DNA from: an uncultured delta proteobacterium
GTDB taxonomy: Bacteria; Myxococcota_A; Polyangia; Polyangiales; Polyangiaceae
Length of the DNA stretch: 64,000 nt
Assembly (NCBI GenBank): GCA_963696385.1
Contig: CAVOKF010000004.1
Span: 1,056,001 to 1,120,000 of the forward strand
Direction: 5' to 3'
Made by a program: the position numbers and the translations under genes. The notes beneath the pieces are model-generated. The model ran no database searches, was not told the DNA's origin, and was given only the letters and a program-made list of their open reading frames with translations. Shown here in pieces: positions 1 to 27,289 of the stretch (the stretch's first letter is position 1; each line of letters begins with the position of its first letter).

Positions 1-645
1 CGCGATCGATGCGCGCGCCGCGTGGACCGCTTTTTCGCGAGTCAGCCCGAGCTGGCCGACGAGTACCTCGACCACCCGTACTTCGAGGTCCGCACGGTCG
101 CTGCGAAGTACGCGAGCGTCTTCCGGCTGCCGGTCCTGCTCCACGACGCCGAGCCGGAGGTCCGGGCCATCGCCGTGTTGCGCCTTCCGGAGCGACAGGC
201 GGCGCAGCTACGCCGCGAGCCGGACCGCCGCGTGCGCCTGGCCGTGGCGAGCCGCATAGCGGGCGCTCTGCTGCTCGAGATGCTTTCCGACGAGGACTAC
301 GCGGTGCGGGCCATGGTCGTTCGGCGGCTGCCGGCGGCCAGCCTCATTCTCGCCGTGGACGACCCGGAGCCTGAAGTGCGACGGTGGGTCGCGCGTCGTA
401 TCCCCGAGGAGCAGCTCGGGTACCTCGCGACCGACACGGAGCCGCTCGTGCGTCTCGAGGTCGCGCGTCGGCTTGCCCCCGAGCTTCTCCAGGGGCTCGC
501 GAAGGACGAGGATTTGCGCGTCCGCTTCACGGTCGCGGAGCGGATCGAGGCCAAGCATCTGTCGCTCTTGGCTTTCGACCGGGACGAAGCCGTTCGCCAG
601 GCGGTGCATCGGCGACTCTGCGAAGGCCAATCGGAGGAACAATAG
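1..645 (+). CDS. nif-associated leucine-rich-repeat-variant (LRV) 4Fe-4S protein, 5'-truncated by window edge
   Basis: Open frame from base 1 (RDRCARRVDRFF...), ~24-aa repeats 'D.E.EVR..VA.RL', directly upstream of nifZ-nifT. Confidence 0.85.
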   Translation, partial: RDRCARRVDRFFASQPELADEYLDHPYFEVRTVAAKYASVFRLPVLLHDAEPEVRAIAVLRLPERQAAQLRREPDRRVRLAVASRIAGALLLEMLSDEDYAVRAMVVRRLPAASLILAVDDPEPEVRRWVARRIPEEQLGYLATDTEPLVRLEVARRLAPELLQGLAKDEDLRVRFTVAERIEAKHLSLLAFDRDEAVRQAVHRRLCEGQSEEQ

Positions 646-647
646 TC

Positions 648-977
648 ATGGGACTCGGCAAAGAAGAAGAGGTCGAGATACGGGCGAACCCCCTGTTTAT
701 GCCGGGGACCAAGGTCGTATCGATCCGGTACGTGAAGAACGACGGCACGTTCGCCGGGCGCGACGTGGGCGAAGTTCTCGTGCGAAAGGGAGATGTCGGG
801 TACGTCCGGGACATCGGGACGTTTCTTCAGCGCTATTACATTTACGCCGTGGAGTTCATCGAAACGGGCGTGGTCGTAGGGATGCGAGGGCGGGAATTGG
901 AAGCCCTGGATGCGACCGGCAAACCGATCAAGCGACCGAAAACCACTCGCGTCGTCGAGGAGATTGAACCGCAATGA
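648..977 (+). CDS. nifZ: NifZ P-cluster maturation protein
   Basis: KNDGTFAG...VRKGDVGYVRDIGTFLQ..YIYAVEF...VVGMR..EL signature; ATG at 648. Confidence 0.92.
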   Translation: MGLGKEEEVEIRANPLFMPGTKVVSIRYVKNDGTFAGRDVGEVLVRKGDVGYVRDIGTFLQRYYIYAVEFIETGVVVGMRGRELEALDATGKPIKRPKTTRVVEEIEPQ

Positions 978-1195
978 AAGTCCTCATTCGCAGGTCGGCA
1001 GCGGGACTGTCGGCGTACGTTCCCAAGAAGGATCTGGAAGAGGCGATCGTCGCCGTCGAGCACGAGGGCTTGTGGGGCGGGTGGGTCCGTCTGAAGAACG
1101 GGTGGACGCTCGACCTACCCGTGATGGCGCCGGAGACGCGGCTGCCCATCACCGTGAATGCCAAAAAACGCGGTGCAGAACCCGAGGAATCGTAA
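974..1195 (+). CDS. nifT: NifT/FixU
   Basis: MKVLIR...SAYVPKKDLEE...WGG...L.NGW...LPITV; ATGA overlap with nifZ. Confidence 0.93.
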   Translation: MKVLIRRSAAGLSAYVPKKDLEEAIVAVEHEGLWGGWVRLKNGWTLDLPVMAPETRLPITVNAKKRGAEPEES

Positions 1196-1234
1196 ACCCG
1201 TACCGGCGAGGCAGGATGGCACGTACCGAGTGTA

Positions 1235-1249
1235 CGGCATCGCGCCTGC
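1235..1249 (+). promoter_or_regulatory. possible sigma54 -24/-12 promoter for iscA-nifS
   Basis: CGGCATCGCGCCTGC (GG-N10-GC) 30 bp before ATG; no exact UAS seen. Confidence 0.4.
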
Positions 1250-1278
1250 GCGGGTGCTTCTCAACGTGGAGTGGTCAA

Positions 1279-1671
1279 ATGGCGGCGAGCAAAATCAGCA
1301 TTGAAGGCGCGGGTTCGGTGATCATCAGTGAAGGGGCGGAGAAGTTCATGCGACGCATGACCCGCTTCGGTGGGCTGGGCCCTGGCGCCGGCTTTCGACT
1401 CGTCGTCAGCCCCGGGGGCTGCTCGGGACTGAGCGCCGAGTTCAGCATCGAGCAAGCGGCAAAACTCGGGGACGAGACGCTCGCGCTCAACGGGCTGCCC
1501 GTCTTTGTGCCTCCGCACAGCGCGAAGCTCTTGGCGGGCGTGACCATCGACTTCGTCGACACGCCGACGCAACAAGGGCTCACGTTCTACAATCCGAATG
1601 CGTCTTCGTCGTGCTCGGACAGTGCACGGCCCGCGGTCGTCCAGTTGTCCGAGCTGGTCACGCGCCCGTGA
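1279..1671 (+). CDS. HesB/IscA-family A-type Fe-S carrier (non-canonical C-terminal Cys motif)
   Basis: FRLVVSPGGCSG...VTIDFVDT...GLTFYNPNA; only one C-terminal Cys. Confidence 0.85.
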   Translation: MAASKISIEGAGSVIISEGAEKFMRRMTRFGGLGPGAGFRLVVSPGGCSGLSAEFSIEQAAKLGDETLALNGLPVFVPPHSAKLLAGVTIDFVDTPTQQGLTFYNPNASSSCSDSARPAVVQLSELVTRP

Positions 1672-1708
1672 AGCGCTTCCCCGAAGAAAGGCGGCTTTTG
1701 CGCGAACC

Positions 1709-2875
1709 ATGAAGACGGTTTACCTCGACAACAACGCGACTACGCGAGTCGACCCCGACGTCGTCCTAGCGATGCTTCCATTCTTCACGGAGCAGTATGG
1801 CAACCCGTCGTCGATCCACGCATTCGGCGCGTCGGTCGGCGGCGCGATCAACGGGGCTCGCCGTAGCGTTCAAGCGCTCCTGGGCGCCCAATTCGACCAC
1901 GAGATTGTGTTCACCTCGGGTGGAACCGAGTCCGACAGCACCGCACTCCTCTCGGCCCTCGAAACGGCTGACGGGCGCAACGAGATTGTGACCACCGCCG
2001 TCGAGCATCCGGCCATCCTCGCCCTCTGCAAGCACCTCAGCGACACGCGGGGCGTGAAGGTCGTGCTCGTGCCAGTCGATTCCGCCGGTCGTCTCGACCT
2101 CGACGCCTATCGGAAGGCGCTCGGTCCCCAAACGGCCATCGCCTCCGTCATGTGGGCGAACAACGAGACGGGAACGTTGTTTCCTATTCCGCTGCTGGCC
2201 GAGTGGGCCCACGAAGCGGGGGCCTTGTTCCACACGGACGCCGTGCAGGCGGTCGGCAAAGTCGCCATTTCTTTGAAGAGCACGCAGATCGACATGCTCT
2301 CGCTGTCCGGCCACAAGTTTCACGGCCCCAAGGGCGTCGGAGCCCTCTTCGTCCGGCGTGGAACACGGCTCCGGCCCATGCTGCGCGGCGGTCACCAGGA
2401 ACGCGCGCGGCGCGCGGGAACGGAAAACACCGCCAGCATCGTGGGGCTTGGCAAAGCCGCCGAGCTCGCCGCAGAAAGACTGCAAGGCGAGCAGACCCGC
2501 GTGCGTGCGCTGCGCGACCGACTGGAGACGGCTCTGCTCGCCCGCATCGCCGGCACTCTCAGCGTGGGCGACCGAGAGCACCGGCTGCCCAATACGTCCA
2601 ACGTCGCGTTCGAGTTTCTCGAAAGCGAAGCACTCCTCGTCCACCTGAGTCGCGCCGGAATTGCGGCTTCCTCGGGTTCCGCCTGCACGTCGGGTTCGAT
2701 GGAGCCGTCGCACGTGCTCCGGGCCATGAACGTCCCCTTTACGGCGGCTCACGGCGCCGTTCGGTTCTCCTTTTCACGGGACAACGACGACGCGGACGTC
2801 GACCGCGTGCTCGAAGTGATGCCCGGCATCGTTGAAACGCTGCGCGAAGGATCTTCCATCGGGACGGACGGGTGA
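1709..2875 (+). CDS. nifS: Cysteine desulfurase NifS
   Basis: YLDNNATT, WANNETG, HTDAVQA, SGHKFHGPKG (PLP Lys), SSGSACTSGSMEPSHVL. Confidence 0.95.
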   Translation: MKTVYLDNNATTRVDPDVVLAMLPFFTEQYGNPSSIHAFGASVGGAINGARRSVQALLGAQFDHEIVFTSGGTESDSTALLSALETADGRNEIVTTAVEHPAILALCKHLSDTRGVKVVLVPVDSAGRLDLDAYRKALGPQTAIASVMWANNETGTLFPIPLLAEWAHEAGALFHTDAVQAVGKVAISLKSTQIDMLSLSGHKFHGPKGVGALFVRRGTRLRPMLRGGHQERARRAGTENTASIVGLGKAAELAAERLQGEQTRVRALRDRLETALLARIAGTLSVGDREHRLPNTSNVAFEFLESEALLVHLSRAGIAASSGSACTSGSMEPSHVLRAMNVPFTAAHGAVRFSFSRDNDDADVDRVLEVMPGIVETLREGSSIGTDG

Positions 2876-2942: not shown

Positions 2943-3308
2943 TTAGGTCCCCGTCAAGCGGCCCTTGGTGTACTTGCCGCGCTCTTTGGGGTGTTCGTTT
3001 TCGTAGGCCTCGAGACTCTCGGAGGCAATCTCCAGTTCAATCGTGCCTTCTCCGGTCACGCGGGCTTGGCACCCGAGTCGAGACGTTGCCCGTACGTCGA
3101 ATGCCTTGTCGAGCGCATCGGACTCCTCGTTCTGCTCGGCGCTGAGCAGCTCGGCCCCTCGCGCAACGTACACGTGGCAGGTGGAACAGGCGCACGCGCC
3201 GCCGCAGGCGCTGCCTACGGGAGCGCGTGCCTTCGTCGCAGCGTCGAGCACGGACGTGCCAGCGCCGACGGTCACCTCGCCGAAGCCCGCAAAGCGAATC
3301 GTCGCCAT
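2943..3308 (-). CDS. fdx: ISC-type 2Fe-2S ferredoxin
   Basis: ACGGACACSTCHVYV...SRLGCQ; last gene of isc/hsc run. Confidence 0.92.
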   Translation of the reverse strand: MATIRFAGFGEVTVGAGTSVLDAATKARAPVGSACGGACACSTCHVYVARGAELLSAEQNEESDALDKAFDVRATSRLGCQARVTGEGTIELEIASESLEAYENEHPKERGKYTKGRLTGT

Positions 3309-5221
3309 CAGCCGAGCTCTTGCGGGTGTGGGCCGTGGGCGTACTCGACGCCCTTGGCGTGCTCGACAGTCCGCGCGATCGCGTCCACGCGCTGACCCCC
3401 AATCGCGCGGGCCATCGCGCGATTCATTCGCCGCGCGGCGAACGCCTTGGTGGCTTCATCCAGCGCATCGATGCTGGCCTGAATGAGCGACGGCTGCTCG
3501 CCGCGCGAGGCTTGCTCGAGTTTCGCGTACGCCCGCTCGATCCTCTCCCTCTCTGCAACGTCGAGCAGGTCCGCATCGGAGTCGATTGCCTTCTGCGTCG
3601 CCAGGAGAATTCGAGCCGCCTCCACGCGATTCTCCGCCAGTCGCCGCCGGTTCAAGTCCTCCTCGCCGTGGTCGAGCGCCTCGGTGAGCATCCGTTCGAC
3701 GGTCGCGTCGTCGAGCCCGTAAGTGGGTCGGACCGTGACCTTCTGCTCGATGCCGGTCGTCGATTCCTTCGCGTGCACGCCGAGAAGACCGTCCGCGTCG
3801 ACCTGGAATTTGACTTCGAGGCGCGCCATTCCGGCGGCCATCGGCGGGATCCCTTTCAGGGTGATGCGCGCGAGACTTCGGCTGTCCGCGACGAGTTCGC
3901 GTTCGCCCTGGACCACGTGAATATCGAACCCGGTCTGGTTGTCTTCTTGCGTCGTGTAGGTGGCGCGAGCGGCGCAGGGGATCGACGAGTTGCGCGCCAG
4001 GATCTTATCGACGACGCCGCCTCCCACTTCGATTCCGAGCGATAGGGGGATCACGTCGAGCAGGAGCACGTCTTCCCGCCGCCTCGGGCCCGCCAACAGA
4101 TCCGCCTGGACGGCGGCGCCGAGCGCCACGACGCGGTCCGGGTCGATGTCGGCGAGCGGTTCTTTGCCGAAAAGCGCCCCCACATACCGTCTCACGAGCG
4201 GAACACGCGTCGCCCCACCCACGAGGATGACCCCATCGAGATCCTTCGGCGCCAACCCCGCGTCCTTCAGCGCGCGGCGACAGGCCACCCCCGTGCGCTC
4301 GAGAAGCGGGCCGATCAGCTCTTCGAACCCCCGGCGATGGACCACGACACGCCCGTGGCCGGCGACTTCGACTTCCACTTCGTCCTGGGTCGTCAGTTCG
4401 TGCTTGACCTTGCGCGCCTGGTCGAGGACCCATCGAACGAGTTGCGGCGTCTGCCGGGCAGAATCCAGCCCGACTTTCTCGAGAAGGTGGTGAGCGATGG
4501 CGCGATCCATGTCGTCGCCTCCAAGCTGGCTGTCGCCGCCGGTCGATCGCACCTGAAAGACGCCGTCGTCCAGCACAAGCACCGTGACGTCGAACGTCCC
4601 GCCGCCCAAGTCGTAGACCGCGAAGGTGCCATTCTGTTTCTTCTCGAGGCCGTACGCCAGAGCGGCTGCCGTCGGCTCGTTCAGGAGCCGCAACACGGTG
4701 AGCCCCGCAAGCCGTGCCGCGTCTTTGGTGGCCTGGCGCTGCGCGTCGTCGAAGTAGGCGGGCACGGTGATGACCGCGCCCCCGACGTTCTGAAGCTCGT
4801 CCTCGGCGAGGGCCTTGAGAGCGCGGAGAATTTCCGCGCTGACTTCGACGGGCGTGACCACTCGCCCGTCCGCAACCCGGAATCGGACCGTGTTCGACTG
4901 ACCCGGCTTGGGAGCGACAAATTCGTAGGGGCCGAGGCGCCGCGTTTCAGCGTCGTCGTTGCCGCGGCCCATCATTCGCTTCACGCTCACGATCGCGTCG
5001 CGCGGATGGTGGCTCGCAAATTCCGCCGCGAGACGCCCGACGATCACGTCACCGGCGGGCAAGTACGCGACGACGCTTGGAAGGAGGACGACCGAATCGC
5101 AATCGGCGATGGCGACGGGCCGCTCGTTCGTCACGTGGGCGACCAGCGAATGGGTCGTTCCCAGATCGATTCCGATCGGCCGCGGGGGCGCTTTGGGATC
5201 GAAGATCTCGAGCAATGCCAT
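3308..5221 (-). CDS. hscA: Fe-S chaperone HscA (Hsp70 family)
   Basis: [36 protein letters not shown]-terminal FAARRMNRA; between hscB and fdx. Confidence 0.95.
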
Positions 5222-5306
5222 TGGAACACCATCGCGGGGGATCCGCGCTCTGCCAGGTTTGTCGTCCGGTCTCTCGCCTCGCTCGAGCCTGCCGGCTCCA
5301 AGCCGA

Positions 5307-5816
5307 CTACGTAAGCTCGTCTTCGATGGCGCCTACTTCGTCCAGAAAGCGCCGGTAGAATCTCAACTTGCCGAGTTTGCCGACGAGGGGCTCGCATAGC
5401 CCGCTGGCGAGGCCGTCGCAGAGCTCTCGCTCCGTTTTGGTCCAGCGCGCCCGGACACCCTCGGCGAGGCTCGAAACCGCCTGTCGATCACGCGCGTCTT
5501 TCGCGTTCGACAGGGCTTCGCGCTGCTCGAGCATCTCCATGAGAAACTCCGGCTCGGGATTCGGCTCGCGGTCGTCGCCAAGGGCGATCCCGCTCAACGC
5601 AAGGAGGGCCTCGGCGCGCCGGAGCGGGTCGCGAACGATTCGCCACGCCTCGTTCACCTCGACCGCTCTGGCGAGCGCCTCTCGCCTCACGCCGGCGGTG
5701 GTCGCGAGGTGGCGGTCGGGGTGAAGCACCCGCGACAGCTCGCGATGGGTCTTTTCGAGCGCCCGCATGTCCACATCGTAGCGGCGAGCAATGCCGAGGG
5801 TCGCGAATGGGTCCAT
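5307..5816 (-). CDS. hscB: Co-chaperone HscB
   Basis: J-domain HPD motif, [23 protein letters not shown]. Confidence 0.92.
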
Positions 5817-5831
5817 AGCGAGCGTGTCTCC

Positions 5832-6230
5832 TCACACGGTAAACGAATTGCCGCAGCCGCAGCTGCTCTTCTCGTTCGGGTTGGCGAACTTGAACCCCTG
5901 ATGCATCAGCGTCTGTTCCCACACGAGCTCCGACCCGTTCAAATAGAGGAGGCTCTTTGGGTCGACGAGGACGCGCACATGGCTTCCGTCAGTCGCCACG
6001 CAATCGAGCACGTGGTCGCGCTCGTGCGGGGGGCCGTCGTGGTACTCGATCACGTACGAAAAGCCGGAACAGCCCCCTCCGCGAATCCCGACCCGCAGAC
6101 TTCCCTCCGGGGTGTGGCGCTTCTGCATCTGGCGAGCAATGACGTCGACCGCCGGTTGCGAAACGGAAATGCCGGGCAGCTTCGAGTCCGGGCCCCGCAC
6201 GTGCCCAGGCGCCTCGACGACGGATTCCAT
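5832..6230 (-). CDS. iscA: IscA A-type Fe-S carrier
   Basis: GGGCSGFSY...NPNEKSSCGCGNSF; start may be GTG 6239. Confidence 0.93.
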   Translation of the reverse strand: MESVVEAPGHVRGPDSKLPGISVSQPAVDVIARQMQKRHTPEGSLRVGIRGGGCSGFSYVIEYHDGPPHERDHVLDCVATDGSHVRVLVDPKSLLYLNGSELVWEQTLMHQGFKFANPNEKSSCGCGNSFTV

Positions 6231-6235
6231 GGCGT

Positions 6236-6655
6236 TCACTCGCCGACGCGGGCGACATCCGCGATGGCCACGCGCTCCGACTGTTTTTTGCGGTAGTCCG
6301 CGATGGCGCTCTTGATCGCGTCTTCGGCGAGCACCGAGCAGTGAATTTTCACCGGGGGCAAGTTCAGTTCGTCCACGATCGCCGAATTCTTGATGCTCGC
6401 GGCCTCGTCCACCGTCTTGCCCTTGATCCACTCGGTGGCGAGCGACGAGCTCGCGATGGCCGATCCGCAGCCGAACGTCTTGAACTTCGCGTCTTCGATG
6501 ACGCCTTGCTCGTTCACCTTGATCTGCAATCGCATCACGTCACCGCAGGCGGGCGCCCCGACGAGCCCCGTGCCGACGCTGGGATCGGCCTTGTCGAGCG
6601 TCCCGACGTTGCGCGGATTCTCGTAATGCTCGATGACTTTCTCGCTGTATGACAT
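6236..6655 (-). CDS. iscU: Fe-S scaffold IscU
   Basis: YSEKVIEHYENPRNVG, PACGD, FGCGSAIASSS, LPPVKIHCSVLAEDA; single domain, not three-domain NifU. Confidence 0.96.
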   Translation of the reverse strand: MSYSEKVIEHYENPRNVGTLDKADPSVGTGLVGAPACGDVMRLQIKVNEQGVIEDAKFKTFGCGSAIASSSLATEWIKGKTVDEAASIKNSAIVDELNLPPVKIHCSVLAEDAIKSAIADYRKKQSERVAIADVARVGE

Positions 6656-7458: not shown

Positions 7459-7536
7459 GATTCCGATCCTCCTCTTCCGATGCGCATCGGGTCTTCGAGT
7501 CGCTTCTCGCTAGGTCGAAGCCGGTCGTGTCATTTT

Positions 7537-7731: not shown

Positions 7732-7742
7732 GGGAAACCTTC

Positions 7743-19326: not shown

Positions 19327-19340
19327 TACGAGTCTAAACG

Positions 19341-20218: not shown

Positions 20219-20344
20219 GTGAGACCGTCAGCCCTCCTCCCGCGTGGAGCAGGTCCCAAAGTGGCGTAGACGCGTAAGAAAGGCCCACGTGATTCACGCG
20301 GCATCGGGTTTCTGGCTCCAGGGCGCTTTCCTACGCAGGCAATC

Positions 20345-20359
20345 CGGCACGGTTCGTGC
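20345..20359 (+). promoter_or_regulatory. sigma54 promoter
   Basis: CGGCACGGTTCGTGC upstream of AGGAG RBS. Confidence 0.65.
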
Positions 20360-20395
20360 TGAGCCGGATCGAACGAACAGGAGCGCGAATCCGAT

Positions 20396-21304
20396 ATGGC
20401 CAACGTAACATTCTCTTCTCCGGTGATGGCGCGGGACATCACCGTCTATGCCGTCGCGGGGGATCGCGGAACCATCCTCGCACTCGCCAAGGAGCACAAG
20501 ATTCCCATCCCTTTCGATTGCCAGGACGGCGAGTGCGGATCCTGTCTCGTCGAAATCAAGCACCTATCGGTCGGCGCGCGGTACGGCATCGCACTCACCG
20601 AGAAGGAGAAGGAACTCCTCCGGCAACTCGGCAGGATTAGCCGGGAAGAGATCAAGGACGCCGAGGTCAACGACATGCCGCCGCGGTTCCGACTGGCGTG
20701 CCAGTGCTTCGTTCGAAACGAGGATATTATCGTGTCCTTCGAGGGGGATACGACGCTGCCCCCCAAGGGGCCGGCTCTCTCGATCGCCGCGGCCGTTTAC
20801 CGGGGCGGCGTCTCGATCCGAACGCTGGAGGAGTTCTTGAGCTATGCGGTCAAAGTCGAGGAGGACGCGGCTATCCACTTCGAACGCCTCGCAGAGGCAA
20901 TGGATGCTTGCGGCAATCGGGATGTGGCCGTGCTGTTTCGCCAACTCGGTGGGTATTCTCGCCTCCATCTCGAAGAGGCCAAAGCGAAGTCCGTGGCGCA
21001 CGGAGTCGTGGTGACCCTTCCTGCCAACTCCGCATGGCCCGATCACGAGACACCGGAGCGTACGGCGTTCTGGGCGGGGCACCCCTCGCGCTCGCGGCTC
21101 GACGCGCTCAAGGCCGCGCTCCAAGGCGAGCGGCGCGGCTTCGAATTCTATTTTGCCGTCGCCGGGACCACGACGGATGCGGGCATCCGTGCCGTGGCCA
21201 AAGAGTTCGTCAAAGAAGAAACGGAACACGTCGATACGCTCAAACAGTGGATCGCGAAAGAAGAAGCCTCGCTGCGAGCGCCGTTCGAGGGCGTCACCTC
21301 ATGA
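20396..21304 (+). CDS. FeSII (Shethna II)-like 2Fe-2S ferredoxin fused to rubrerythrin/ferritin-like domain
   Basis: FSSP.M, AVAG.R.T.L, IPF.CQDG.CGSCLV, LTEKEK, DMPP.FRLACQ match FeSII motifs from recall; C-terminus has VEEDAA..F, GERRGFEFY, EETEH di-iron motifs. Confidence 0.82.
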   Translation: MANVTFSSPVMARDITVYAVAGDRGTILALAKEHKIPIPFDCQDGECGSCLVEIKHLSVGARYGIALTEKEKELLRQLGRISREEIKDAEVNDMPPRFRLACQCFVRNEDIIVSFEGDTTLPPKGPALSIAAAVYRGGVSIRTLEEFLSYAVKVEEDAAIHFERLAEAMDACGNRDVAVLFRQLGGYSRLHLEEAKAKSVAHGVVVTLPANSAWPDHETPERTAFWAGHPSRSRLDALKAALQGERRGFEFYFAVAGTTTDAGIRAVAKEFVKEETEHVDTLKQWIAKEEASLRAPFEGVTS

Positions 21305-21332
21305 TGCGGGCGGAGGCGAAGGAAAAGTCGCG

Positions 21333-21788
21333 ATGAACGACGTGAACACCTTTCTGGCGCACGCCATCCAACTCGAACGCGACGCGGCGCGGCGTTTCGA
21401 AGACTTGTCGCATTCGATGCAAACCGCCGGCAACCGTGAGGTCGAAGCGCTCTTTCGTCGCCTCGGGGAGTTTTCGAGGCTACACCTCCAGACGGCCCTG
21501 GCGCGCGGCGGCTTCCGGAGCCTGCCGGAGATTTCACCGGCCGAATTTCAGTGGCCCGACGGCGTCACACCCGAAGCGGCGGGGTGGCAAGGTGTCGACG
21601 CCGGGCTCGACGTGCACGGCGCGTTGCAGGTCGCGCTCGAAGGCGAGCGCAGCGGCCACGCCTACTACGAGGCGATTGCCCACACCTCGGACGATCCCGA
21701 AGTGGCCACGATGGCGCTCTCGTTCGCGGAGGAAGAGGCGCAACATGTCTCCGAACTGGAGCGCTGGGTCGCACGTTTTTCGCCCTGA
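21333..21788 (+). CDS. Rubrerythrin/ferritin-like di-iron protein
   Basis: LERDAARRF, SRLH, GERSGHAYY, EEEAQH; paralogous to the C-domain of the upstream gene. Confidence 0.85.
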   Translation: MNDVNTFLAHAIQLERDAARRFEDLSHSMQTAGNREVEALFRRLGEFSRLHLQTALARGGFRSLPEISPAEFQWPDGVTPEAAGWQGVDAGLDVHGALQVALEGERSGHAYYEAIAHTSDDPEVATMALSFAEEEAQHVSELERWVARFSP

Positions 21789-21908
21789 CACCGCGGTCCG
21801 AAAAATGTCGTACGCTCAGTGTTCGCGGCTCCGGCGCTCGGCGCAGCGCTGGCGAATGTTCGTTTGTCATTTGCAGTTGGGCGATCAGCCCAGCACGCGA
21901 GGCTCGCC

Positions 21909-22115
21909 ATGACGGACCATGTGTACAAGATTGAAGAGTTCGTGGGATCGTCTCCGATTGGACAAGATGAGGCGATTCGAAACGCGATCAAGCGGGCGGC
22001 CGAGACGCTGCACCGTCTTCGATGGTTCGAGGTGACGGAAACTCGGGGCCAGATCACGGACGGCCGTATCGTGCATTGGCAAGTTACGGTGCGCGTGGGT
22101 TCGACGCTCGAATAG
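21909..22115 (+). CDS. Dodecin (flavin-binding)
   Basis: [11 protein letters not shown]...AI.RA.ETL..LRWFEV.ETRG...WQV. Confidence 0.92.
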
Positions 22116-22188
22116 TGCCTTCTCACGGCGACCCGCCCGATGAGATCGAGCGGGGGGCGCGTCACGGCCTTCATTGCCCGCCGTCCCG

Positions 22189-22331
22189 TGTCGCGACACC
22201 GACAAGACCTGGAACGAACGACATCGCTCCAGCCGGAAGTTGCCTCTCGTCACTTATGGACCGGCGCCAGAGCTCGGTCGGCGCCTTCTTCGATCTCATC
22301 GTCGACGAACGCCCTTGTCAGGAACCGTACA
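22189..22331. promoter_or_regulatory. two NifA UAS
   Basis: TGT-CGCGACACCG-ACA (22189-204) and TGT-CAGGAACCGT-ACA (22316-331). Confidence 0.7.
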
Positions 22332-22401
22332 GGGTCGCAAACCTCGCAAAGGCAACGCCGTCGACGCGACGAATGCAGCGGTAAAACAAGGCACTCCTGG
22401 C

Positions 22402-22416
22402 TGGCACGGGCGTTGC
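22402..22416 (+). promoter_or_regulatory. sigma54 promoter, consensus match
   Basis: TGGCACGGGCGTTGC. Confidence 0.88.
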
Positions 22417-22438
22417 GCTCAGGATGGGATGGAGCACG

Positions 22439-22783
22439 ATGGACGCCCCCGCAGCACTCGAATTACCGGTCGTTTTCCGACACCATGCGTTTTGCTGCTT
22501 TCAGCAACGCCCGCCGGGGCACCCACGCGGGAGCTGCTCCGGCCTGGGTGCCGGCCCGCTCTGGGAGCGCCTCAGCGGACAACTGCAAGCAAAGGGGCTC
22601 GCCGACGCTTCGCTGGTCGCGACGGGCTGCCTCGGCTTTTGCGGGGCCGGTCCGCTCATGGTCGTGTACCCCGCCGGGGTCTGGTACCAGCCGCGAACGC
22701 CCGCCGACATCGACGAGATCGTGCAGTCGCATTTCGTCGAGGGCAAACCGGTCGAGAGGCTCATCGTCGTGCTGAAGGGCTAG
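22439..22783 (+). CDS. Thioredoxin-like 2Fe-2S ferredoxin (FeSI/Shethna I-like)
   Basis: C.QQRPPGHPRGSC...TGCLGFC..GP..VVYP.GVWY. Confidence 0.88.
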   Translation: MDAPAALELPVVFRHHAFCCFQQRPPGHPRGSCSGLGAGPLWERLSGQLQAKGLADASLVATGCLGFCGAGPLMVVYPAGVWYQPRTPADIDEIVQSHFVEGKPVERLIVVLKG

Positions 22784-22802
22784 CGCACGCGAAGGAGACC
22801 CA

Positions 22803-23795
22803 TTGCAGGTGATCCCTCTTGCTCTGCCCCGGCCGTGGCTCGACGCTCCCGCAGCCGTGCACTTGACGGGCGACCGGCTGCTTCGCATCGAAGGAAGTGG
22901 CAGTCGGCGCTGGCTCAACGCGATGCTGACCGCGGACCTTCGCACGGCGGCTCCCGGCGTCGCACGCTACGCCCTGTTGCTCTGCGCAACCGGCGGGATT
23001 GTCAGCGACGCCTGGGTCGTCGAGCACGCTGTCGGGGAGCCCGAACGACTGACGCTCGTCCTGCCCGAAGCGTGCGCGGAGCGCGCCGCGAGGGAGCTGA
23101 CGAGATTCGTGGTCAATGAGGAGATTGCCCTGACTTTCGACGACGACGTCCGCGTCGTCTCCCTGCAAGGCCCCCGCGGCCGCGACCTGCTCGACATCGA
23201 CGGTCCGGTGGCCGTTGCAAACGCCTACCCTTGCGCCCGGCTGGGTCCGCAGGGACTCGACGTGTGGGTTCGAGCGCCGCAGGTCGACCTCGCGATGGCA
23301 CTCCTGTCGGCGAGCGCGTCCCGGCTCGGCGGCGGGGCGATGAACGCCATCGAATGGTGCTCGGCTCGAGTCGCACTCGGGGTTCCGCAGGCCGGAACCG
23401 ACTTCAACGAGACCACGTCCCCGCACGAGGCGGGGATCGAGGCGCGCGCCATCTCGTTCACCAAGGGCTGCTATTTGGGCCAGCAAACCGTGGCCAGGCA
23501 ACATCGCCGTGGTGGGCTCACGCAACGGCTCGTCCAGCTGGACGTCGAAGGCCCCCAGGGGGTCGAAAAAGGCTCGGGGGTGCGTGGCCCAAGTGGCGAA
23601 GAGGTGGGCCGCGTCACGTCGGTGGCCTCGGCGAGCGACGAGGGCAGCAGCGCTTTGGCGCTCGTCTACCTGACTGCGCCCTTCGCACAGGTCGGCGCTC
23701 GCGTGATGGTGGGTGAACGGCAAGCTCAGGTCCGAAGCATCGTGGGCCGGCTCGGGACTGCCGCGCCACCACACCACGCGACGGCAGGATGGTGA
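22803..23795 (+). CDS. YgfZ/GcvT-family folate-dependent Fe-S maturation factor
   Basis: AISFTKGCYLGQQ motif; start uncertain. Confidence 0.85.
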   Translation: MQVIPLALPRPWLDAPAAVHLTGDRLLRIEGSGSRRWLNAMLTADLRTAAPGVARYALLLCATGGIVSDAWVVEHAVGEPERLTLVLPEACAERAARELTRFVVNEEIALTFDDDVRVVSLQGPRGRDLLDIDGPVAVANAYPCARLGPQGLDVWVRAPQVDLAMALLSASASRLGGGAMNAIEWCSARVALGVPQAGTDFNETTSPHEAGIEARAISFTKGCYLGQQTVARQHRRGGLTQRLVQLDVEGPQGVEKGSGVRGPSGEEVGRVTSVASASDEGSSALALVYLTAPFAQVGARVMVGERQAQVRSIVGRLGTAAPPHHATAGW

Positions 23796-23999: not shown

Positions 24000-24126
24000 A
24001 GGTAGTCTTCGCACGCTTTTCAGTTATGGGCCGATTTTTACTCGGCGGACGATTGCGAGGCGGCCCAGCGGGTGTAACGTGATTGGGTGACACGGAAACG
24101 GCAACCGTGGAACTGAGCGCAGCCGA

Positions 24127-25923
24127 TTGATGCGATCCTCGACCCTTTCGCCCGTTCCTTCCTATTCGGATGGCGAAGCCGTGCCGGATTCCGATGAGCG
24201 AGCTGAGCCCGGCTCTGCGAACTCGGAGATCGCGCTCTACGGTGTCTATGAGATCTCCAAAGTGCTCAACGAGCCAGGACGCCTGGAGGTCACACTCGGA
24301 AAGGTGGTCCATCTGCTGTCGAGCTTTCTCGACATGCGACATGGCTTGATCGCTCTTCTCGGGGAGCGCGGCGATCCGGAGATTGTCGTGGGAAGCGGAT
24401 GGAGCGAGGCCACGGCAAAGCGGTATTTCGATCGCCTGCCCGAGCGCGCCATCGGACAGATTGTCGTCACGCAGATGCCTCTCGTCGTCCCCAACATGAG
24501 GGACGAGGCGCTCTTCGAAGGGTGGGACTTCTCGGGCGACCGGGATGTGGCCGGCGACATTGCGTTCATCGGGGTCCCCATCAAGGACCGGGGAGAGGTG
24601 GTGGGGACGCTCACGATCGATCGAGAACTGGGGCCGCAGCGAGCCGTCCCGCTCGATGACGATGTGCGTTTCCTCGCGATGGTCGCGAACCTCGTCGGGC
24701 AGACGGTTCGCCTCCAGCGTATGATTGCTCGCGATCGCGAACGGCTCATGGTCGAGCGAGCGCGTCTCGAGAAGAGCGTCGAGCGGAAGACGTCGCCGGA
24801 CGAGAGCCACGCGCTCGGCGACATTTTCGGTGGGAGCAAGGCTCTCCATGCCGTCGTCGAGAAGGTGCGCATCGTTGCCCGGAGCAACTCGACGGTTCTT
24901 TTGCGAGGCGAGTCCGGCACGGGCAAGGAACTCTTCGCTCGCGCCGTCCACGATCTGTCGCCACGCCGCGATCGGGCGTTCGTGTCGGTCAACTGCGCCG
25001 CGTTGCCTGAGGCCGTGCTCGAGTCCGAGCTTTTCGGGCACGAGAAGGGAGCGTTTACGGGGGCGGCTTCGCAGCGCAAGGGGCGCTTCGAACTCGCCGA
25101 CGGCGGCACGTTGTTTTTGGACGAGATCGGAGAGATCTCACCTGCTTTTCAGGCCAAACTCCTTCGGGTGCTCCAAGAGGGGGAATTCGAGCGCGTCGGA
25201 GGGACGACGACGCTGAAAGTCAACGTGCGCCTCGTCGCGGCCACCAATCGCAATCTCGAGGAAGCGGTAAGTCAGCGCGAGTTTCGCGCCGACCTCTACT
25301 ACCGGATCAGCGTCGTGCCCATCTTCCTGCCGCCGCTGAGGGACCGGCCCAGCGATATCCCGCCGCTCGCCGAAGAATTTCTTCGGCGGTTCAACGAGGA
25401 GCACGCCACGGGACTCACCCTCGGGGCCGGTGCGATTTCCGTGCTCACGTCGTGTTCGTTTCCCGGCAACGTGCGTGAGCTCGAGAACTGCGTGCGTCGC
25501 ACCGCAACGCTCGCGGCAGGAACCACCCTGGTCGCGGACGACTTCGCCTGCAAGCACGACGAGTGCTTGTCGGCCGTCCTGTGGAAAAAGCCGATGCAGC
25601 CGCCCGACGTCGGCTTTGTCCCGTTGCCGATTACTCGTGCGCGAAGCGTTGCGCACGGCAGCGTGTCCGCGCCGGCGGGCCCGGGCTGCCAACCATCCGC
25701 CTCACCTGAGGGTGAATCCGAATCCGTCACGATCTCGCTGTCAGGGTCGGATCGTCCGGCGCCGGTCGCCCAGGGGGCCAACAAGAGCGATCGAGATCGA
25801 CTCATCGAGGCCATGGAATCCGCAGGCTGGGTTCAAGCGAAGGCGGCGCGTCTTCTTGGAATCAGTCCGCGACAGATCGGCTATGCGCTGCGCAAGTACG
25901 ACATCGAAATCAAGAGGTTTTGA
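24127..25923 (+). CDS. nifA: NifA sigma54 activator (GAF-AAA-HTH, Cys-linker type)
   Basis: [15 protein letters not shown]-x11-C-x19-C-x4-[19 protein letters not shown]; true start may be downstream (GTG 24181). Confidence 0.96.
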
Positions 25924-25967
25924 AAGCCACGCGCAGCGATGCCTACGCGTGTCTCGTCAGCAAGCCC

Positions 25968-26720
25968 TCAAGACTCGAGCGACGTCACGCGATACTCGAC
26001 CGCGTCGTCGAAAATGCGTGTTCCGCCGCCTTCGGCGACGATTTGCATGAGCCTCTCGGGATCTCGGACGACGACCCCGGCGAGGTAATTCACGCCGAAA
26101 TCCGACCATTCGGACATCCAAGGAACGCTCGGACCGAGAAGCACCACAGTGGCTTTTCGGCTGAGATCCAGCAGGCGCGGCATGGTTTTGTTCGCGATCG
26201 CGCTTGCCGTCACAAAGACCCAGTCCGCCTTCGGAAGTACGGTTTCAGCCGCCGTGTCCGGCAGCGTGCCGGGGGTCGCGCGCCGTTCGATGCAGATGTA
26301 CCGGAATCCCGCCCACAGCATATCGAGGCCTGGATAGCGCCCGATGACCACGACCTCGGCGCCGTCCAGTCGGGGAGCGAAGTGCGCGAACACGCGCAAG
26401 TGAGCGGGCGCTTGCGCGACGATGGCTTGCGACCGCGCCATGCAACGATTGTCCGGGTCGTTGACCACGGCATTGATCGCGGCGCAGCCGACGGCCGCTT
26501 CGCAGGGATCGAAGCTTCGAACCCAAGGAGCGACTTCGGCGACCGGGCGACCGGCGAGCGTTCCAGGGAATGCGAGGGTCCGCGGCGGATCGACGGGGCT
26601 AAAGCAGAGGCCCGATTCGCGTACTTCGGCCACGCTCCAGTTCAAGCCGAGGAGCACGCGTCGGAGCGGCTGGGTAGAGCGCGCTCGGTCGACGAGCAGG
26701 TCGTAAAGGTCCCAAGGCAC
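25968..26720 (-). CDS. DUF364 (Rossmann-like) protein
   Basis: GCAAINA, VVVIG, VFVTASAIANKTMPRLL, VLLGPSVP. Confidence 0.8.
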   Translation of the reverse strand: MPWDLYDLLVDRARSTQPLRRVLLGLNWSVAEVRESGLCFSPVDPPRTLAFPGTLAGRPVAEVAPWVRSFDPCEAAVGCAAINAVVNDPDNRCMARSQAIVAQAPAHLRVFAHFAPRLDGAEVVVIGRYPGLDMLWAGFRYICIERRATPGTLPDTAAETVLPKADWVFVTASAIANKTMPRLLDLSRKATVVLLGPSVPWMSEWSDFGVNYLAGVVVRDPERLMQIVAEGGGTRIFDDAVEYRVTSLES

Positions 26721-26724
26721 CGAC

Positions 26725-27289
26725 TCAGCCCACTCGTGCGCTCACGCGGTCGCCCCCCCTCGCGATCTCGCCCCACCAGTTTTTGAGAACCCAGAGATGG
26801 GCGTCGAGCATCGTTGCCATTCCGTCGCGCAAGGATAGCCAGTTGTGGACCATCCCGCGAGGCACGGCGGTCAGGACCGGGCAGCCACTGAATGTGGCCC
26901 GTGCCAGCTCCCGTCTGAGCCCGTGTCCACGTCCTTCCTCTTTACCGAAGCGTGAGACGAAAATGAGAATCCGCGTCGGAGTCAATCGCGGCTCGAATTC
27001 GGCCGGCCGCGTGCCGGAGCGCAGTCGGGTTCAGCGCACAGTCCTCCGCCCCCCGTCCGAGGTCTCGACAAATCGAGAACGTCTCGCCCGTGGCGACGTC
27101 GCGCAACATCCTCGGCGCGTTGGGCCCGCATCCCGGGCTGCCCCGCGGAAGCTGAATGACTCCCCCCAATCGAACGCCTTCGGTCGCAAGGTCACGTGCG
27201 AATACGAGCAGGAGCTCGTCCACCGCGACGCCCACGTCGTAAACCACGGCGGCGAGCTTACGCGGGTCCATCGTCACTGCGTCGTCCAT
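26725..27289 (-). pseudogene. DUF2478-family protein with +1 frameshift near 26968
   Basis: GVRLGGVIQ..ICRDLGRGA..CALNP in one frame; IFVSRFGKEE..G.GLR..PVLTAVP in the next. Confidence 0.75.

What the first reader, a model, noticed from the sequence alone, without database searches (positions are those of the whole stretch)
1..27289. Proteobacterial-type, microaerobic-style nif island in an apparent myxobacterial (Polyangiales-like) genome
Seen: nifH, nifA with Cys linker, fixBCX, nifQ/W/X/Z/T, LRV, DUF269, DUF683 and fdxB/N. Known: this accessory set and the NifH motifs ([31 protein letters not shown]) typify alpha/beta-proteobacterial diazotrophs, not the Geobacter/Anaeromyxobacter type. 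Inference: flanking and interspersed genes (TonB-C-fused receptor, DSG-rich lipoproteins, isc/hsc, START-like ORF) look myxobacterial. That would make this a horizontally acquired, ameliorated island in a possibly O2-tolerant diazotrophic myxobacterium.
Basis: partly seen in the sequence, partly recalled or inferred. Interest (0 to 1): 0.85.

Follow-up and report, generated by a model that had tools for sequence, protein, structure and literature searches.

The report
Borrowed nitrogen-fixation genes in a myxobacterium
An uncultured soil and peat myxobacterium related to Sorangium carries a complete nitrogen-fixation gene set taken from alphaproteobacteria, rebuilt with some of its own genes and apparently switched on in nature, so this group of aerobic decomposers may fix nitrogen.

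Summary

**What is there.** Window 1-27445 is the right-hand 60% of a 46-kb nif/fix regulon (C4:1037500-1083450). nifV, nifH1DKENX and nifB lie just upstream of the window.

**Host.** The host is a Polyangiales-type myxobacterium. A 16S gene on the same contig is 91% identical to Sorangium and 77% to alphaproteobacteria. RpoB is 83% versus 60-62%.

**Origin of the nif genes.**
- NifD is 85% identical to Roseomonas and Gluconacetobacter.
- In a NifD+NifK tree, nine myxobacterial sequences form one clade (92/95). It is sister to those Acetobacterales (99/98) and nested in alphaproteobacteria.
- Distribution is patchy: 10 of 401 genomes sampled in the order, 5 of 31 in the genus, 1 of 19 in Sorangium's genus.
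- Composition is not deviant.

**Signs of function.**
- Twelve sigma-54 sites paired with a NifA binding motif sit in front of the operons, against 0.33 expected.
- The nifE frameshift is an assembly error.
- Contigs from a metatranscriptome cover nifHDKENXB.

**New points.**
- nifH is duplicated (910 bp, 99.45% identical).
- fixA is separated from fixBCX.
- Full-length nifU is missing. A NifA-promoted second copy of the host's own iscU-iscA-hscBA-fdx operon stands in the island instead.

MAG surveys have already noted such nitrogenases in Myxococcota in passing. N2 fixation itself is untested.

The parts
1..645 (+). LRV2, a leucine-rich-repeat-variant Fe-S protein. Its 5' end lies upstream of the window, after nifB.
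   Evidence: Pfam LRV 1.3e-19 and LRV_FeS. 60% identical to the Roseomonas nif locus.
690..1195 (+). nifZ (690-977) and nifT (974-1195).
   Evidence: PF04319 1.5e-29 and PF06988 1.3e-27. TIGR02934 at 106.8 bits, cut-off 41.
1598..2875 (+). nifS cysteine desulfurase.
   Evidence: TIGR03402 at 586.6 bits, cut-off 530.75. 72-73% identical to Roseomonas and Gluconacetobacter.
2943..6649 (-). nif-linked second copy of the host ISC machinery: iscU 6236-6649, iscA 5832-6170, hscB 5307-5816, hscA 3308-5221, 2Fe-2S fdx 2943-3308.
   Evidence: NCBIfam IscU 229 bits (cut-off 192) and HscA 795 bits (cut-off 709). 58-91% identical to the housekeeping operon at C5:1438878-1443764. The HscA copy nests in the genus clade, and the four nif-side copies form one clade at 100/98.
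6715..8439 (-). iscA_nif (HesB) 8119-8439, nifW 7743-8159, 4Fe-4S ferredoxin 7537-7731, NafY/NifX-like protein 6715-7458. They lie upstream of, and on the same strand as, the ISC copy.
   Evidence: Gaps between the nine genes are at most 86 bp, read from the coordinates.
8440..8869 (.). Divergent promoter region. A sigma-54 site at 8508 (minus strand, for iscA_nif-nifW...hscA-fdx) and one at 8803 (plus strand, for nifH2) share two TGT-N10-ACA motifs.
8870..9778 (+). nifH2, the second copy of the nitrogenase Fe protein gene.
   Evidence: TIGR01287 at 451 bits. 910 bp at 99.45% identity to nifH1 at C4:1046378-1047287, coding sequence only.
9963..12214 (+). Sigma-54 site plus UAS at 9963, then nifX2 10009-10488, DUF269 10514-10990, DUF683 11020-11229, fdxN 11255-11539 and nifQ 11588-12214.
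   Evidence: nifX2 is 59% identical to nifX1, which follows nifN.
12385..16270 (-). fixB 15167-16270, fixC 13847-15151, fixX 13560-13850 and modC 12385-13485. fixA is elsewhere.
   Evidence: Sigma-54 site at 16293 with two UAS motifs. 78-80% identical to Sorangium.
16528..17545 (+). SIR2_2-domain gene (start near 16604) with its own sigma-54 site and UAS. A conserved nif-cluster gene, not an insertion.
   Evidence: PF13289 1.1e-18. Found after nifT in Sorangium (65%) and in G365 (60%), and in 19 of 78 proteobacterial nif loci.
18178..19182 (+). Fragment of an M3 oligopeptidase (residues 157-353 of a 680-residue model). A likely gene remnant.
19312..23795 (+). Putative O2-protection and Fe-S repair genes behind two sigma-54/UAS promoters (19312, 22402): iscA-like 19341-19748, truncated globin 19850-20218, Fer2-rubrerythrin 20396-21304, a second rubrerythrin-like ORF 21153-21788, dodecin 21819-22115, thioredoxin-like 2Fe-2S ferredoxin 22424-22783, YgfZ 22803-23795.
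   Evidence: The globin is 60-62% identical to betaproteobacterial nif loci and Fer2-Rbr 65% to a Burkholderiaceae locus.
24127..25923 (+). nifA: GAF domain, sigma-54 AAA+ domain, Cys-motif linker and HTH_8.
   Evidence: TIGR01817 at 725 bits, cut-off 528.85. C-X11-C-X19-C-X4-C read.
25968..27445 (-). DUF364 (25968-26720) and DUF2478 (26725-27445, split into two frames in this assembly). Right end of the nif region.
   Evidence: DUF2478 reads in one frame in G365. The split in G000 was not checked against reads.
27866..36141 (+). Host block next to the island: HTH plus molybdate-binding-like regulator 27866-28837, lipoprotein with D/S/G-rich linker about 28834-30486, ORF 30353-31906, and a receptor with a fused TonB C-terminal domain 31906-36141.
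   Evidence: The block is present in nif-less G199 and G417, and lies next to nif in G365.

Best explanation
**What it is.** This is a working Mo-nitrogenase (nif/fix) regulon of alphaproteobacterial descent, sitting in the chromosome of an uncultured Polyangiales myxobacterium.

**Inferred history.**
1. One nif/fix cluster related to those of Acetobacterales entered the Polyangiales.
2. It then spread and was lost patchily within the order.
3. In the sublineage holding this genome it was reshuffled. nifH was duplicated, so there are two nifH promoters. fixA was moved next to nifV. Full-length nifU was lost. A duplicate of the host's own iscU-iscA-hscB-hscA-fdx operon was placed behind a NifA/sigma-54 promoter, together with nifW and a HesB-type iscA.

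**Inferred mechanism.**
- When fixed N and O2 are low, NifA becomes active. Its O2-sensitive-type Cys motif is present.
- NifA binds TGT-N10-ACA sites and drives about 11 sigma-54 promoters.
- FixABCX and FdxN feed electrons to NifH.
- NifS plus the nif-dedicated ISC copy build the Fe-S clusters.
- NifB, NifEN, NifX, NifV and NifQ build FeMo-co.
- The globin, rubrerythrin, dodecin and 2Fe-2S ferredoxin genes, together with the host's cbb3 oxidase, keep O2 away.

**What is shown and what is inferred.** Shown: gene content, host identity, phylogeny, promoter motifs, gene integrity, and presence in RNA-library contigs. Inferred: N2 fixation itself, the regulation, and the role of the ISC copy.

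**My odds.** About 0.9 for an alphaproteobacterial origin in a myxobacterial host. About 0.7 that the organism really fixes N2.
For: **Host.**
- 16S on the same contig: 91% to Sorangium, 77% to alphaproteobacteria.
- RpoB: 83% versus 60-62%.

**Gene set.**
- nifHDKENB, plus V, X, Q, W, Z, T, S, fixABCX and nifA are all present.
- The single frameshift in nifE (L117:15087) is absent from every covering contig of three runs, at depths 76.7 of 76.7, 35 of 35 and 10.8 of 10.8.

**Phylogeny.**
- Careful NifD+NifK tree, 39 rows by 1019 columns.
- The 9 myxobacterial rows form one clade (92/95; 94% of 200 bootstrap trees).
- That clade is sister to Roseomonas + Gluconacetobacter (99/98), inside an alphaproteobacterial clade (99/93 and 100/99).
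- Most of the other nif proteins also hit those two taxa best.

**Distribution of NifD.**
- 10 of 401 genomes in the order sample, G000 included.
- 5 of 31 in the genus.
- 1 of 19 in Sorangium's genus.

**Regulation.** 12 sigma-54 sites paired with a UAS in 57 kb, against 39 in the other 6.80 Mb (0.33 expected). All 12 lie at operon starts.

**Host-derived graft.**
- Two HscA copies occur in exactly 4 of 31 genus genomes: G000, G324, G365 and G409.
- These are the four whose NifD is 93-100% identical. None of the 26 nif-less genomes has two copies.
- The four extra copies form one clade (100/98) inside the genus HscA clade (100/100).
- NifU proper is over its cut-off in 0 of 31 genus genomes. 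It is over the cut-off in Sorangium, G313, G239 and Roseomonas.

**Expression.**
- RNA-library contigs at 99.7% identity or more cover nifV to nifB.
- They give depth 0 over modAB and bfr, where a DNA run of the same study is flat near 33.

**Respiration.** ccoN (cbb3 oxidase) is present at C7:628387-629772, 681 bits against a cut-off of 583.
Against: - No physiological data exist for any Polyangiales strain in the papers I searched.
- The laid runs are contigs, not raw reads. The tool states that they cannot prove transcription or rank genes.
- The RNA run may come from the same campaign as the assembly.
- Monophyly of the myxobacterial NifDK has 92/95 support, which is not decisive. The NifD-only quick tree left these sequences unresolved at the base of the rhizobial/acetobacter clade.
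- G245 (same genus) and G100 (another family) do not sit where the species relationships predict. The history inside the order is therefore more than vertical descent.
- The reference taxa were the 80 best NifD hits, so the named sister group depends on that sample.
- The assembly carries other indels. Five differences from short-read contigs were seen in 20 kb. The DUF2478 split was not checked.
- rpoN, glnB/K and other host-side regulators were not searched.
- No mobile-element signature marks the edges, and no empty site could be found in relatives.
Confidence: 0.8

Rival explanations
1. Assembly or binning artefact: alphaproteobacterial DNA was wrongly joined to, or binned with, a myxobacterial genome.
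For: The genome is a metagenome-type assembly (8 contigs, contamination 2.78%) with residual indel errors. I did not lay reads across the two outer junctions.
Against: - The 16S gene lies on the same 1.17-Mb contig.
- Host-type genes stand inside and beside the region.
- The same nif type lies in a 3.98-Mb contig of G365 next to the same host block.
- It also lies in the complete 12.38-Mb chromosome of a cultured Sorangium.
- GC3 and tetranucleotides match the genome.
Confidence: 0.02
2. Vertical inheritance: the cluster is ancestral to Polyangiales or Myxococcota and was lost many times. Alphaproteobacteria were the recipients, not the donors.
For: - The myxobacterial NifDK form one clade.
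- The NifD-only tree put them as an unresolved grade at the base of the rhizobial/acetobacter group.
- Composition is native-like.
Against: - NifD is 85% identical to Acetobacterales while RpoB is 62%.
- The clade is nested two supported nodes deep within alphaproteobacteria.
- Only 10 of 401, 5 of 31 and 1 of 19 genomes carry it.
- Other family members carry unrelated nif types: G179 at 74%, G352 and G318 at 42-43%.
Confidence: 0.04
3. Several independent acquisitions: each myxobacterial lineage took its cluster separately from related alphaproteobacteria.
For: - Gene order differs strongly between G000, G365 and Sorangium.
- G245 and G100 are misplaced relative to taxonomy.
- The family clearly acquired other nif types independently.
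- Support for monophyly is below the star threshold (92/95).
Against: - One clade appears in 94% of 200 bootstrap trees.
- The clusters share peculiarities. fixA is detached from fixB in G000, G365 and Sorangium, and the SIR2_2 gene follows nifT in G365 and Sorangium.
Confidence: 0.1
4. Decaying relic: the cluster is present but no longer supports N2 fixation.
For: - The assembly shows frameshifts in nifE and DUF2478.
- There is an M3 peptidase remnant.
- nifU is absent.
- fixABCX is split.
Against: - The nifE frameshift is absent from three runs.
- All core genes otherwise have open frames and high family scores.
- The promoter and UAS architecture is kept at 11 operon starts.
- The nifH copies are kept 99.45% identical.
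- RNA-library contigs cover nifHDKENXB.
Confidence: 0.08

Closest known systems
nif/fix regulons of aerobic Alphaproteobacteria without NifL (Acetobacterales such as Gluconacetobacter, and rhizobia), driven by NifA and sigma-54
   Same: - The gene set matches: nifHDKENX-DUF269-DUF683-fdxN-nifQ, nifB-fdx-nifZ-nifT-SIR2_2, nifSVW, fixABCX, LRV and nifA with the Cys motif.
- TGT-N10-ACA motifs sit upstream of -24/-12 promoters.
- Protein identities to Roseomonas and Gluconacetobacter run from about 50% (NifX) to 88% (NifH).
   Different: - The host is a myxobacterium.
- There is no full-length nifU.
- A nif-promoted hscBA-iscUA-fdx copy is present. hscA and hscB were found in 0 of 78 proteobacterial loci, but these reach only 10 kb or less each side of nifD and many are shorter.
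- fixA is detached from fixBCX.
- The order of the modules is reshuffled.
Diazotrophic Anaeromyxobacter, the Myxococcota nitrogen fixers known from culture (PMC11127431, passages read)
   Same: Same phylum, soil habitat, Mo-nitrogenase.
   Different: - Those are facultative anaerobes of another class.
- Here the nif is alphaproteobacterial and comes with fixABCX and O2-protection genes.
- I did not compare directly with an Anaeromyxobacter sequence.
- Two members of the same family (G352, G318) do carry a NifD only 42-43% identical.
Reiterated nifH genes of rhizobia, such as the Rhizobium etli nifH copies kept identical by gene conversion (recalled, no call)
   Same: Two nifH coding sequences are 99.45% identical, with unrelated flanks and separate NifA-type promoters.
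   Different: The second copy here is a stand-alone gene in front of a separately promoted nifX2-nifQ operon.
NifU/NifS versus IscSUA-HscBA-Fdx division of labour in Azotobacter vinelandii (recalled, no call)
   Same: There is a dedicated Fe-S assembly system for nitrogenase beside a housekeeping ISC operon.
   Different: The dedicated scaffold here is not NifU. It is a paralogue of the host's own ISC operon, chaperones included.
Survey notes of Group I nitrogenases in Myxococcota MAGs (bioRxiv 10.1101/2025.11.14.688567, passage read) and of eight nifH-bearing Polyangiales genomes (PMC13479853, passages read)
   Same: The same phenomenon seen at the level of MAG catalogues.
   Different: The passages I read give no account of the donor, the cluster anatomy, the regulation, the ISC graft or expression. 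Their supplements were not opened.

Membership tests
Mo-nitrogenase system (minimal set nifHDKENB) | nifH, nifD and nifK present with family-level scores | tested here: met
   nifH TIGR01287 at 451 bits (cut-off 394). nifD and nifK PF00148 at 335 and 398 bits. Both nifH copies score 435 bits on PF00142.
Mo-nitrogenase system (minimal set nifHDKENB) | nifE, nifN and nifB present and intact | tested here: met
   nifN TIGR01285 at 577 bits and nifB TIGR01290 at 710 bits. nifE is split by one extra base in the assembly, but that base is absent from the contigs of 3 of the 4 runs laid. The fourth run had no cover there.
NifA/sigma-54 regulon of the NifL-less (alpha/beta-proteobacterial) type | NifA with GAF, AAA+ and HTH domains and the interdomain C-X11-C-X19-C-X4-C motif | tested here: met
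   TIGR01817 at 725 bits (cut-off 529). The motif was read. That this motif marks O2-sensitive NifA proteins is recalled, not tested.
NifA/sigma-54 regulon of the NifL-less (alpha/beta-proteobacterial) type | -24/-12 promoters with an upstream TGT-N10-ACA at nif operons | tested here: met
   12 paired sites in 57 kb against 0.33 expected from the rest of the genome.
NifA/sigma-54 regulon of the NifL-less (alpha/beta-proteobacterial) type | rpoN present and nifL absent in the genome | not tested
   No search was made for rpoN or nifL.
FixABCX electron-bifurcating complex | All four subunits present | tested here: met
   fixB, fixC and fixX lie in the window. fixA lies at C4:1043770-1044612, 280 residues without a stop. 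They are split over two operons.
Horizontally acquired gene cluster | Gene tree conflicts with the organism tree, and distribution among relatives is patchy | tested here: met
Horizontally acquired gene cluster | Deviant base composition | tested here: not met
   GC is at the 4.8th percentile, but the tetranucleotide distance is ordinary (27% of windows are as far) and GC3 equals that of the flanks. This fits amelioration or a donor of similar GC.
Mobile genomic island (integrative element) | Integrase, tRNA target, flanking direct repeats, and an empty site in relatives | tested here: not met
   No tRNA gene in C4:1016001-1120000. No edge repeats in the self-comparison. No integrase domain among the ORFs scanned near the edges; the only mobile gene seen is an IS110 transposase about 32 kb to the left. 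The flanks are not syntenic in genus-mates.
Polyangiales (Myxococcota) host | rRNA and core proteins closest to Polyangiales | tested here: met
   16S 91% and RpoB 83% to Sorangium sp. So ce513, which NCBI files under Polyangiaceae. Only five comparison genomes were used.
NifU-dependent nitrogenase Fe-S assembly | Full-length NifU (TIGR02000) in the nif cluster | tested here: not met
   0 of 31 genus genomes are over the cut-off; only IscU-length matches were found. It is present in 4 of 5 comparison genomes.

The most novel reading that the evidence does not exclude
A lineage of aerobic soil and peat myxobacteria is an active, previously overlooked group of diazotrophs. To run a borrowed alphaproteobacterial nitrogenase, it discarded NifU and placed a duplicate of its own IscU-IscA-HscBA-Fdx chaperone machinery under NifA control. 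This would be a new route of nitrogenase Fe-S maturation and an example of how a recipient domesticates a transferred nif cluster.
Probability: 0.4. Interest if true: 0.75.

Novelty: new variant of a known kind. Interest (0 to 1): 0.62.

Why it matters
**Ecology.** Polyangiales are abundant aerobic decomposers and predators in soil, wood and peat, and they are not counted among nitrogen fixers. If they fix N2, budgets and marker-gene surveys that assign alphaproteobacterial-looking nifH reads to Alphaproteobacteria mislabel part of the signal.

**Testability.** The same cluster sits in a cultured strain with a complete genome, Sorangium sp. So ce513. The question can therefore be tested at the bench at once.

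**Engineering.** The replacement of NifU by a NifA-controlled copy of the host's ISC and chaperone operon is a natural experiment. It shows what a foreign host needs in order to run nitrogenase, which bears on efforts to move nif into new organisms.

Tried and rejected
- **Protein Atlas look-up of RpoB for taxonomy.** Taxa were 'not recorded', so it was of no use.
- **First sigma-54 scans.** I had placed the GC of the -12 element one position off, so they found nothing meaningful. One search corrects this.
- **Sigma-54 motifs alone are not enriched.** There are 53 in 57 kb against 44 expected. Only the pairing with a UAS is enriched.
- **Search for an empty integration site.**
  - The left flank (20 kb) hits scattered places in five genus-mates.
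  - The neighbours of the right-flank block in nif-less G417 and G199 map to other contigs of G000.
  - No borders could be fixed this way.
- **Mobile-element marks.** No tRNA genes and no Rfam family in the window or in L117.
- **A nifX remnant after nifN?** An 85-bp similarity suggested one. It is in fact a complete second nifX gene.
- **The 2Fe-2S ferredoxin at 22424-22783 as a Shethna FeSII-type protection protein.** The solved relatives are thioredoxin-like [2Fe-2S] ferredoxins, so I make no FeSII claim.
- **The SIR2_2 gene as a foreign insertion replacing fixA.** Rejected, because it is a conserved nif-cluster gene.
- It failed on a reference with stop codons.
- **Not done.** Complex prediction, structure prediction and the large protein searches were not used.

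Full report
**1. What is in the sequence.**

Coordinates are in the parts list.

The window starts in the middle of the cluster. Searching the whole assembly (6.94 Mb, 8 contigs, 96.4% complete, 2.8% contamination) found all five Oxidored_nitro matches just upstream, at C4:1047623-1053499. It also found two equally strong NifH matches, at C4:1046390-1047205 and at window 8882-9697.

Annotating the 40 kb upstream gives this order:
- modA, modB, Mop-domain pieces;
- an IscS-type desulfurase, LRV1, bacterioferritin;
- fixA and nifV (minus strand);
- nifH1-D-K-E-N-X1, then nifB.

The window then continues:
- LRV2-nifZ-nifT-nifS;
- a nine-gene minus-strand block: iscA_nif, nifW, fdx, NafY-like, iscU, iscA, hscB, hscA, fdx;
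- nifH2;
- nifX2-DUF269-DUF683-fdxN-nifQ;
- fixB-C-X-modC (minus strand);
- a SIR2_2 gene and a peptidase remnant;
- a globin / rubrerythrin / dodecin / ferredoxin / YgfZ group;
- nifA, DUF364 and DUF2478.

The regulon spans about C4:1037500-1083450 (46 kb), of which window 1-27445 is the right part.

**2. Host.**

- The only 16S gene found lies on the same contig, 400 kb away. It is 91% identical to all four 16S copies of Sorangium sp. So ce513 and 77% to two alphaproteobacteria.
- RpoB is 83% identical to Sorangium, 77% to a MAG that turned out to be a member of the same family (G002 = G313), and 60-62% to three alphaproteobacteria.
- NCBI files Sorangium under Polyangiaceae, Polyangiales, Myxococcota.
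- Earlier notes of this scan also call the genome a soil and peat myxobacterium. I checked that independently here.

**3. Where the nif genes come from.**

The best 80 were kept.
- The top hits are Sorangium sp. So ce513 88%, the family-mate MAG 86%, Roseomonas acroporae 85%, Gluconacetobacter azotocaptans 84%, a Hyphomicrobiaceae MAG 84%, then rhizobia at 79-82%.
- NifD is therefore about as close to Acetobacterales as to other myxobacteria, while RpoB differs by 20 points.
- A quick NifD tree of 85 rows placed the myxobacterial sequences in a starred 25-row clade with Acetobacterales, Hyphomicrobiaceae and rhizobia, but left them unresolved. For that tree I dropped L015, a duplicate of G313, and all but one 'Mesorhizobium sp.' row.
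- A careful NifD+NifK tree (39 rows, 1019 columns) resolves nine myxobacterial rows as one clade. Support is 92 ultrafast bootstrap and 95 SH-aLRT, with 94% of 200 bootstrap trees needing a single change.
- That clade is sister to Roseomonas + Gluconacetobacter (99/98). It lies inside a clade with a Rhodospirillaceae MAG, Hyphomicrobiaceae and rhizobia (99/93, 100/99). It was rooted on 16 other proteobacterial sequences.
- Most of the other nif proteins (NifK, E, N, B, Z, T, S, Q, V, LRV2, SIR2_2) also hit those two Acetobacterales best among 78 named loci.

**4. Distribution.**

- In an even sample of the order, 10 of 401 genomes (G000 included) have a NifD match at E <= 1e-30. That is 8 of 190 in the family, 1 of 15 in a second family, and none in the other 22 families sampled.
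- Two of the ten (G352, G318) carry a NifD only 42-43% identical. One (G179, 74%) falls in the other proteobacterial clade. The family has therefore taken up nif more than once.
- In the genus, 5 of 31 genomes have NifD: G000, G324 95%, G409 95%, G365 93%, G245 83%.
- In Sorangium's genus, 1 of 19 has it.
- The genus tallies include two unpublished genomes (G319, G401). Both are negative, so without them the count is 5 of 29.

**5. Composition and borders.**

- The region has 64.2% GC against 65.8 +/- 1.1% for 146 other 46-kb windows (4.8th percentile).
- Its tetranucleotide distance is ordinary: 27% of windows are as far.
- GC3 is 0.79 against 0.78 in the flanks.
- There is no tRNA gene in 104 kb, no edge repeat, and no integrase domain among the ORFs scanned near the edges.
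- The right-hand block is host DNA. It comprises an HTH plus molybdate-binding-like regulator, a lipoprotein with a D/S/G-rich linker, an ORF, and a receptor with a fused TonB C-terminal domain. It occurs in nif-less G199 and G417 and again beside nif in G365.
- The left flank is a variable region with toxin-antitoxin genes and an IS110 transposase, and it shows no synteny.

**6. Rearrangement and host grafts.**

Sorangium has a compact, conventional layout:
- fixBCX-fixA, nifA, nifB-fdx-nifZ-nifT-SIR2_2;
- modCA;
- nifHDKENX-DUF269-DUF683-fdxN-nifQ-iscA-nifU-nifS-nifV-nifW.

G000 and G365 hold largely the same genes in quite different orders.

In G000 the two nifH copies share 910 bp at 99.45% identity (5 mismatches), confined to the coding sequence. 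Each has its own promoter.

The iscU-iscA-hscB-hscA-fdx genes inside the region are a second copy of the host's housekeeping operon at C5:1438878-1443764. Identities are IscU 91%, IscA 75%, HscB 58%, HscA 76% and Fdx 73%. The IscS-type gene upstream is 81% identical.

- Two HscA copies occur in exactly four of 31 genus genomes: G000, G324, G365 and G409. These are the four with the closely related NifD.
- None of the 26 nif-less genomes has two copies, and G245 has one.
- In G409 and G365 the extra copy lies on the nif contig or in the nif region. For G324 the linkage is unknown.
- In an HscA tree the four extra copies form one clade (100/98) inside the genus clade (100/100), with Sorangium and G239 as outgroup.
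- Full-length NifU is over its cut-off in 0 of 31 genus genomes. It is over the cut-off in Sorangium, G313, G239 and Roseomonas. G100, which is 89% complete, has none.
- hscA and hscB were found in 0 of 78 proteobacterial nif loci. Those loci reach at most 10 kb each side of nifD, and many are shorter.

I infer that this sublineage replaced NifU by a nif-dedicated copy of its own ISC and chaperone system.

**7. Regulation.**

- NifA scores 725 bits on the NifA equivalog model and carries C-X11-C-X19-C-X4-C.
- I scanned C4:1036001-1093000 for TGGCAC-N5-TTGCA-like sites (at least 8 of 11 matches, GG and GC fixed). This gives 53 sites against 44 expected, so there is no enrichment of the motif alone.
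- Twelve of the 53 have a TGT-N10-ACA 40-300 bp upstream, against 39 such pairs in the other 6.80 Mb (0.33 expected).
- All twelve lie in front of operon starts: LRV1, nifV (two candidate sites), nifH1, nifB, iscA_nif, nifH2, nifX2, fixB, SIR2_2, iscA3 and the 2Fe-2S ferredoxin.
- The host-derived ISC copy lies downstream of the iscA_nif promoter on the same strand, with gaps of at most 86 bp.

**8. Integrity and expression.**

- nifE is split by a frameshift in the assembly.
- Twenty public runs from 14 studies (soil, peat, wetland) hold part of nifD-nifB. Four of them are RNA libraries.
- I laid the contigs of four runs on L117. The extra base at 15087 is missing in every covering contig of the RNA run X6 (76.7 of 76.7), of X2 (35 of 35) and of X1 (10.8 of 10.8). 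X8 had no cover there.
- Four other indel differences were seen in the 20 kb. The assembly therefore has residual indel errors, and the DUF2478 split may be another one; it was not checked. G365's nifK is split in the same way.
- The RNA run gives word depths of 832 over nifH, 200-335 over nifD and nifK, 20-68 over nifE to nifB, and 58 over nifV.
- It gives 0 over modA-modB and bfr, where the DNA run of the same study is flat at about 33.
- Its contigs differ from the assembly by 1-4 letters in about 1400.
- The tool warns that contigs neither prove transcription nor rank genes, and that the best holders may stem from the source sample. I read this as good but not decisive evidence of expression in nature.

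**9. Oxygen.**

- The cluster has fixABCX, nifW, bacterioferritin, a truncated globin, two rubrerythrin-type ORFs, dodecin, a thioredoxin-like 2Fe-2S ferredoxin and YgfZ. Part of this set sits behind NifA-type promoters.
- The host has a cbb3 oxidase gene. So do 19 of 31 genus genomes, including all five with nif.
- This fits microaerobic fixation, but it is inference.

**10. Literature.**

Five full-text searches found no paper describing an alphaproteobacterial nif cluster in Polyangiales or Sorangium. I saw only passages of the four papers below.
- A 2026 soil survey lists eight potential N-fixing genomes of the order Polyangiales (PMC13479853).
- A PNAS paper mentions Myxococcota fixers and non-fixers only for genome size.
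- The soil metagenome study of Masuda and colleagues treats only Anaeromyxobacteraceae.

The occurrence has therefore been glimpsed in catalogues. The donor, the anatomy, the NifU replacement and the expression evidence appear to be new.

**Verdict.** This is a real, well-supported case of a transferred and domesticated nif regulon. It is ordinary in its biochemistry, unusual in its host, and has one new twist: the ISC graft. Nitrogen fixation itself remains to be shown.

Noticed in passing
window 38006-47518: A KaiC homologue (38407-40500) lies next to a histidine kinase and a response regulator. At 45176-47518 there is a hybrid kinase with an N-terminal KaiB domain followed by PAS, HisKA, HATPase and receiver domains. 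This may be a clock-like KaiBC signalling module in a myxobacterium.
   Followed up: no
window 36768-37514: This PhoU gene has a 97% identical copy on contig C6:53912-54655 and three more paralogues at 54-75%. It points to a recent duplication or a repeated cassette.
   Followed up: no
L117:672, 3031, 5317, 11310, 15087 (C4:1036672-1051087): There are five indel differences between the assembly and short-read contigs in 20 kb, one of which breaks nifE. The assembly needs polishing, and apparent pseudogenes in it should be distrusted. nifK of G365 is split in the same way.
   Followed up: partly
G179, G352, G318 (loci L111-L113): Other members of the same family carry unrelated nitrogenase types. 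G179 has a NifD 74% identical that groups with the other proteobacterial clade. G352 and G318 have a NifD only 42-43% identical. The family has acquired nif at least three times.
   Followed up: partly
window 16604-17545; G001 region 33788-34594; G365 region 37463-38284: A SIR2_2-domain protein is a conserved member of nif clusters. It follows nifT in Sorangium and G365, occurs in 19 of 78 proteobacterial loci, and here has its own NifA-type promoter. Its role in nitrogen fixation is unknown to me.
   Followed up: partly
window 56204-56455, 61041-61476; L116:2233-3588, 9840-12828: The surroundings hold mobile and selfish elements: a transposase fragment, a HicA toxin with a neighbouring small ORF, an IS110 transposase, and ParE and Phd-type toxin-antitoxin genes. 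The nif region sits in a variable part of the chromosome.
   Followed up: no
window 31906-36141: The 1411-residue receptor has a TonB C-terminal domain (residues 363-422) ahead of the plug and barrel. A stretch near residues 150-260 looks like out-of-frame translation. This may be another assembly indel or a true fusion.
   Followed up: no
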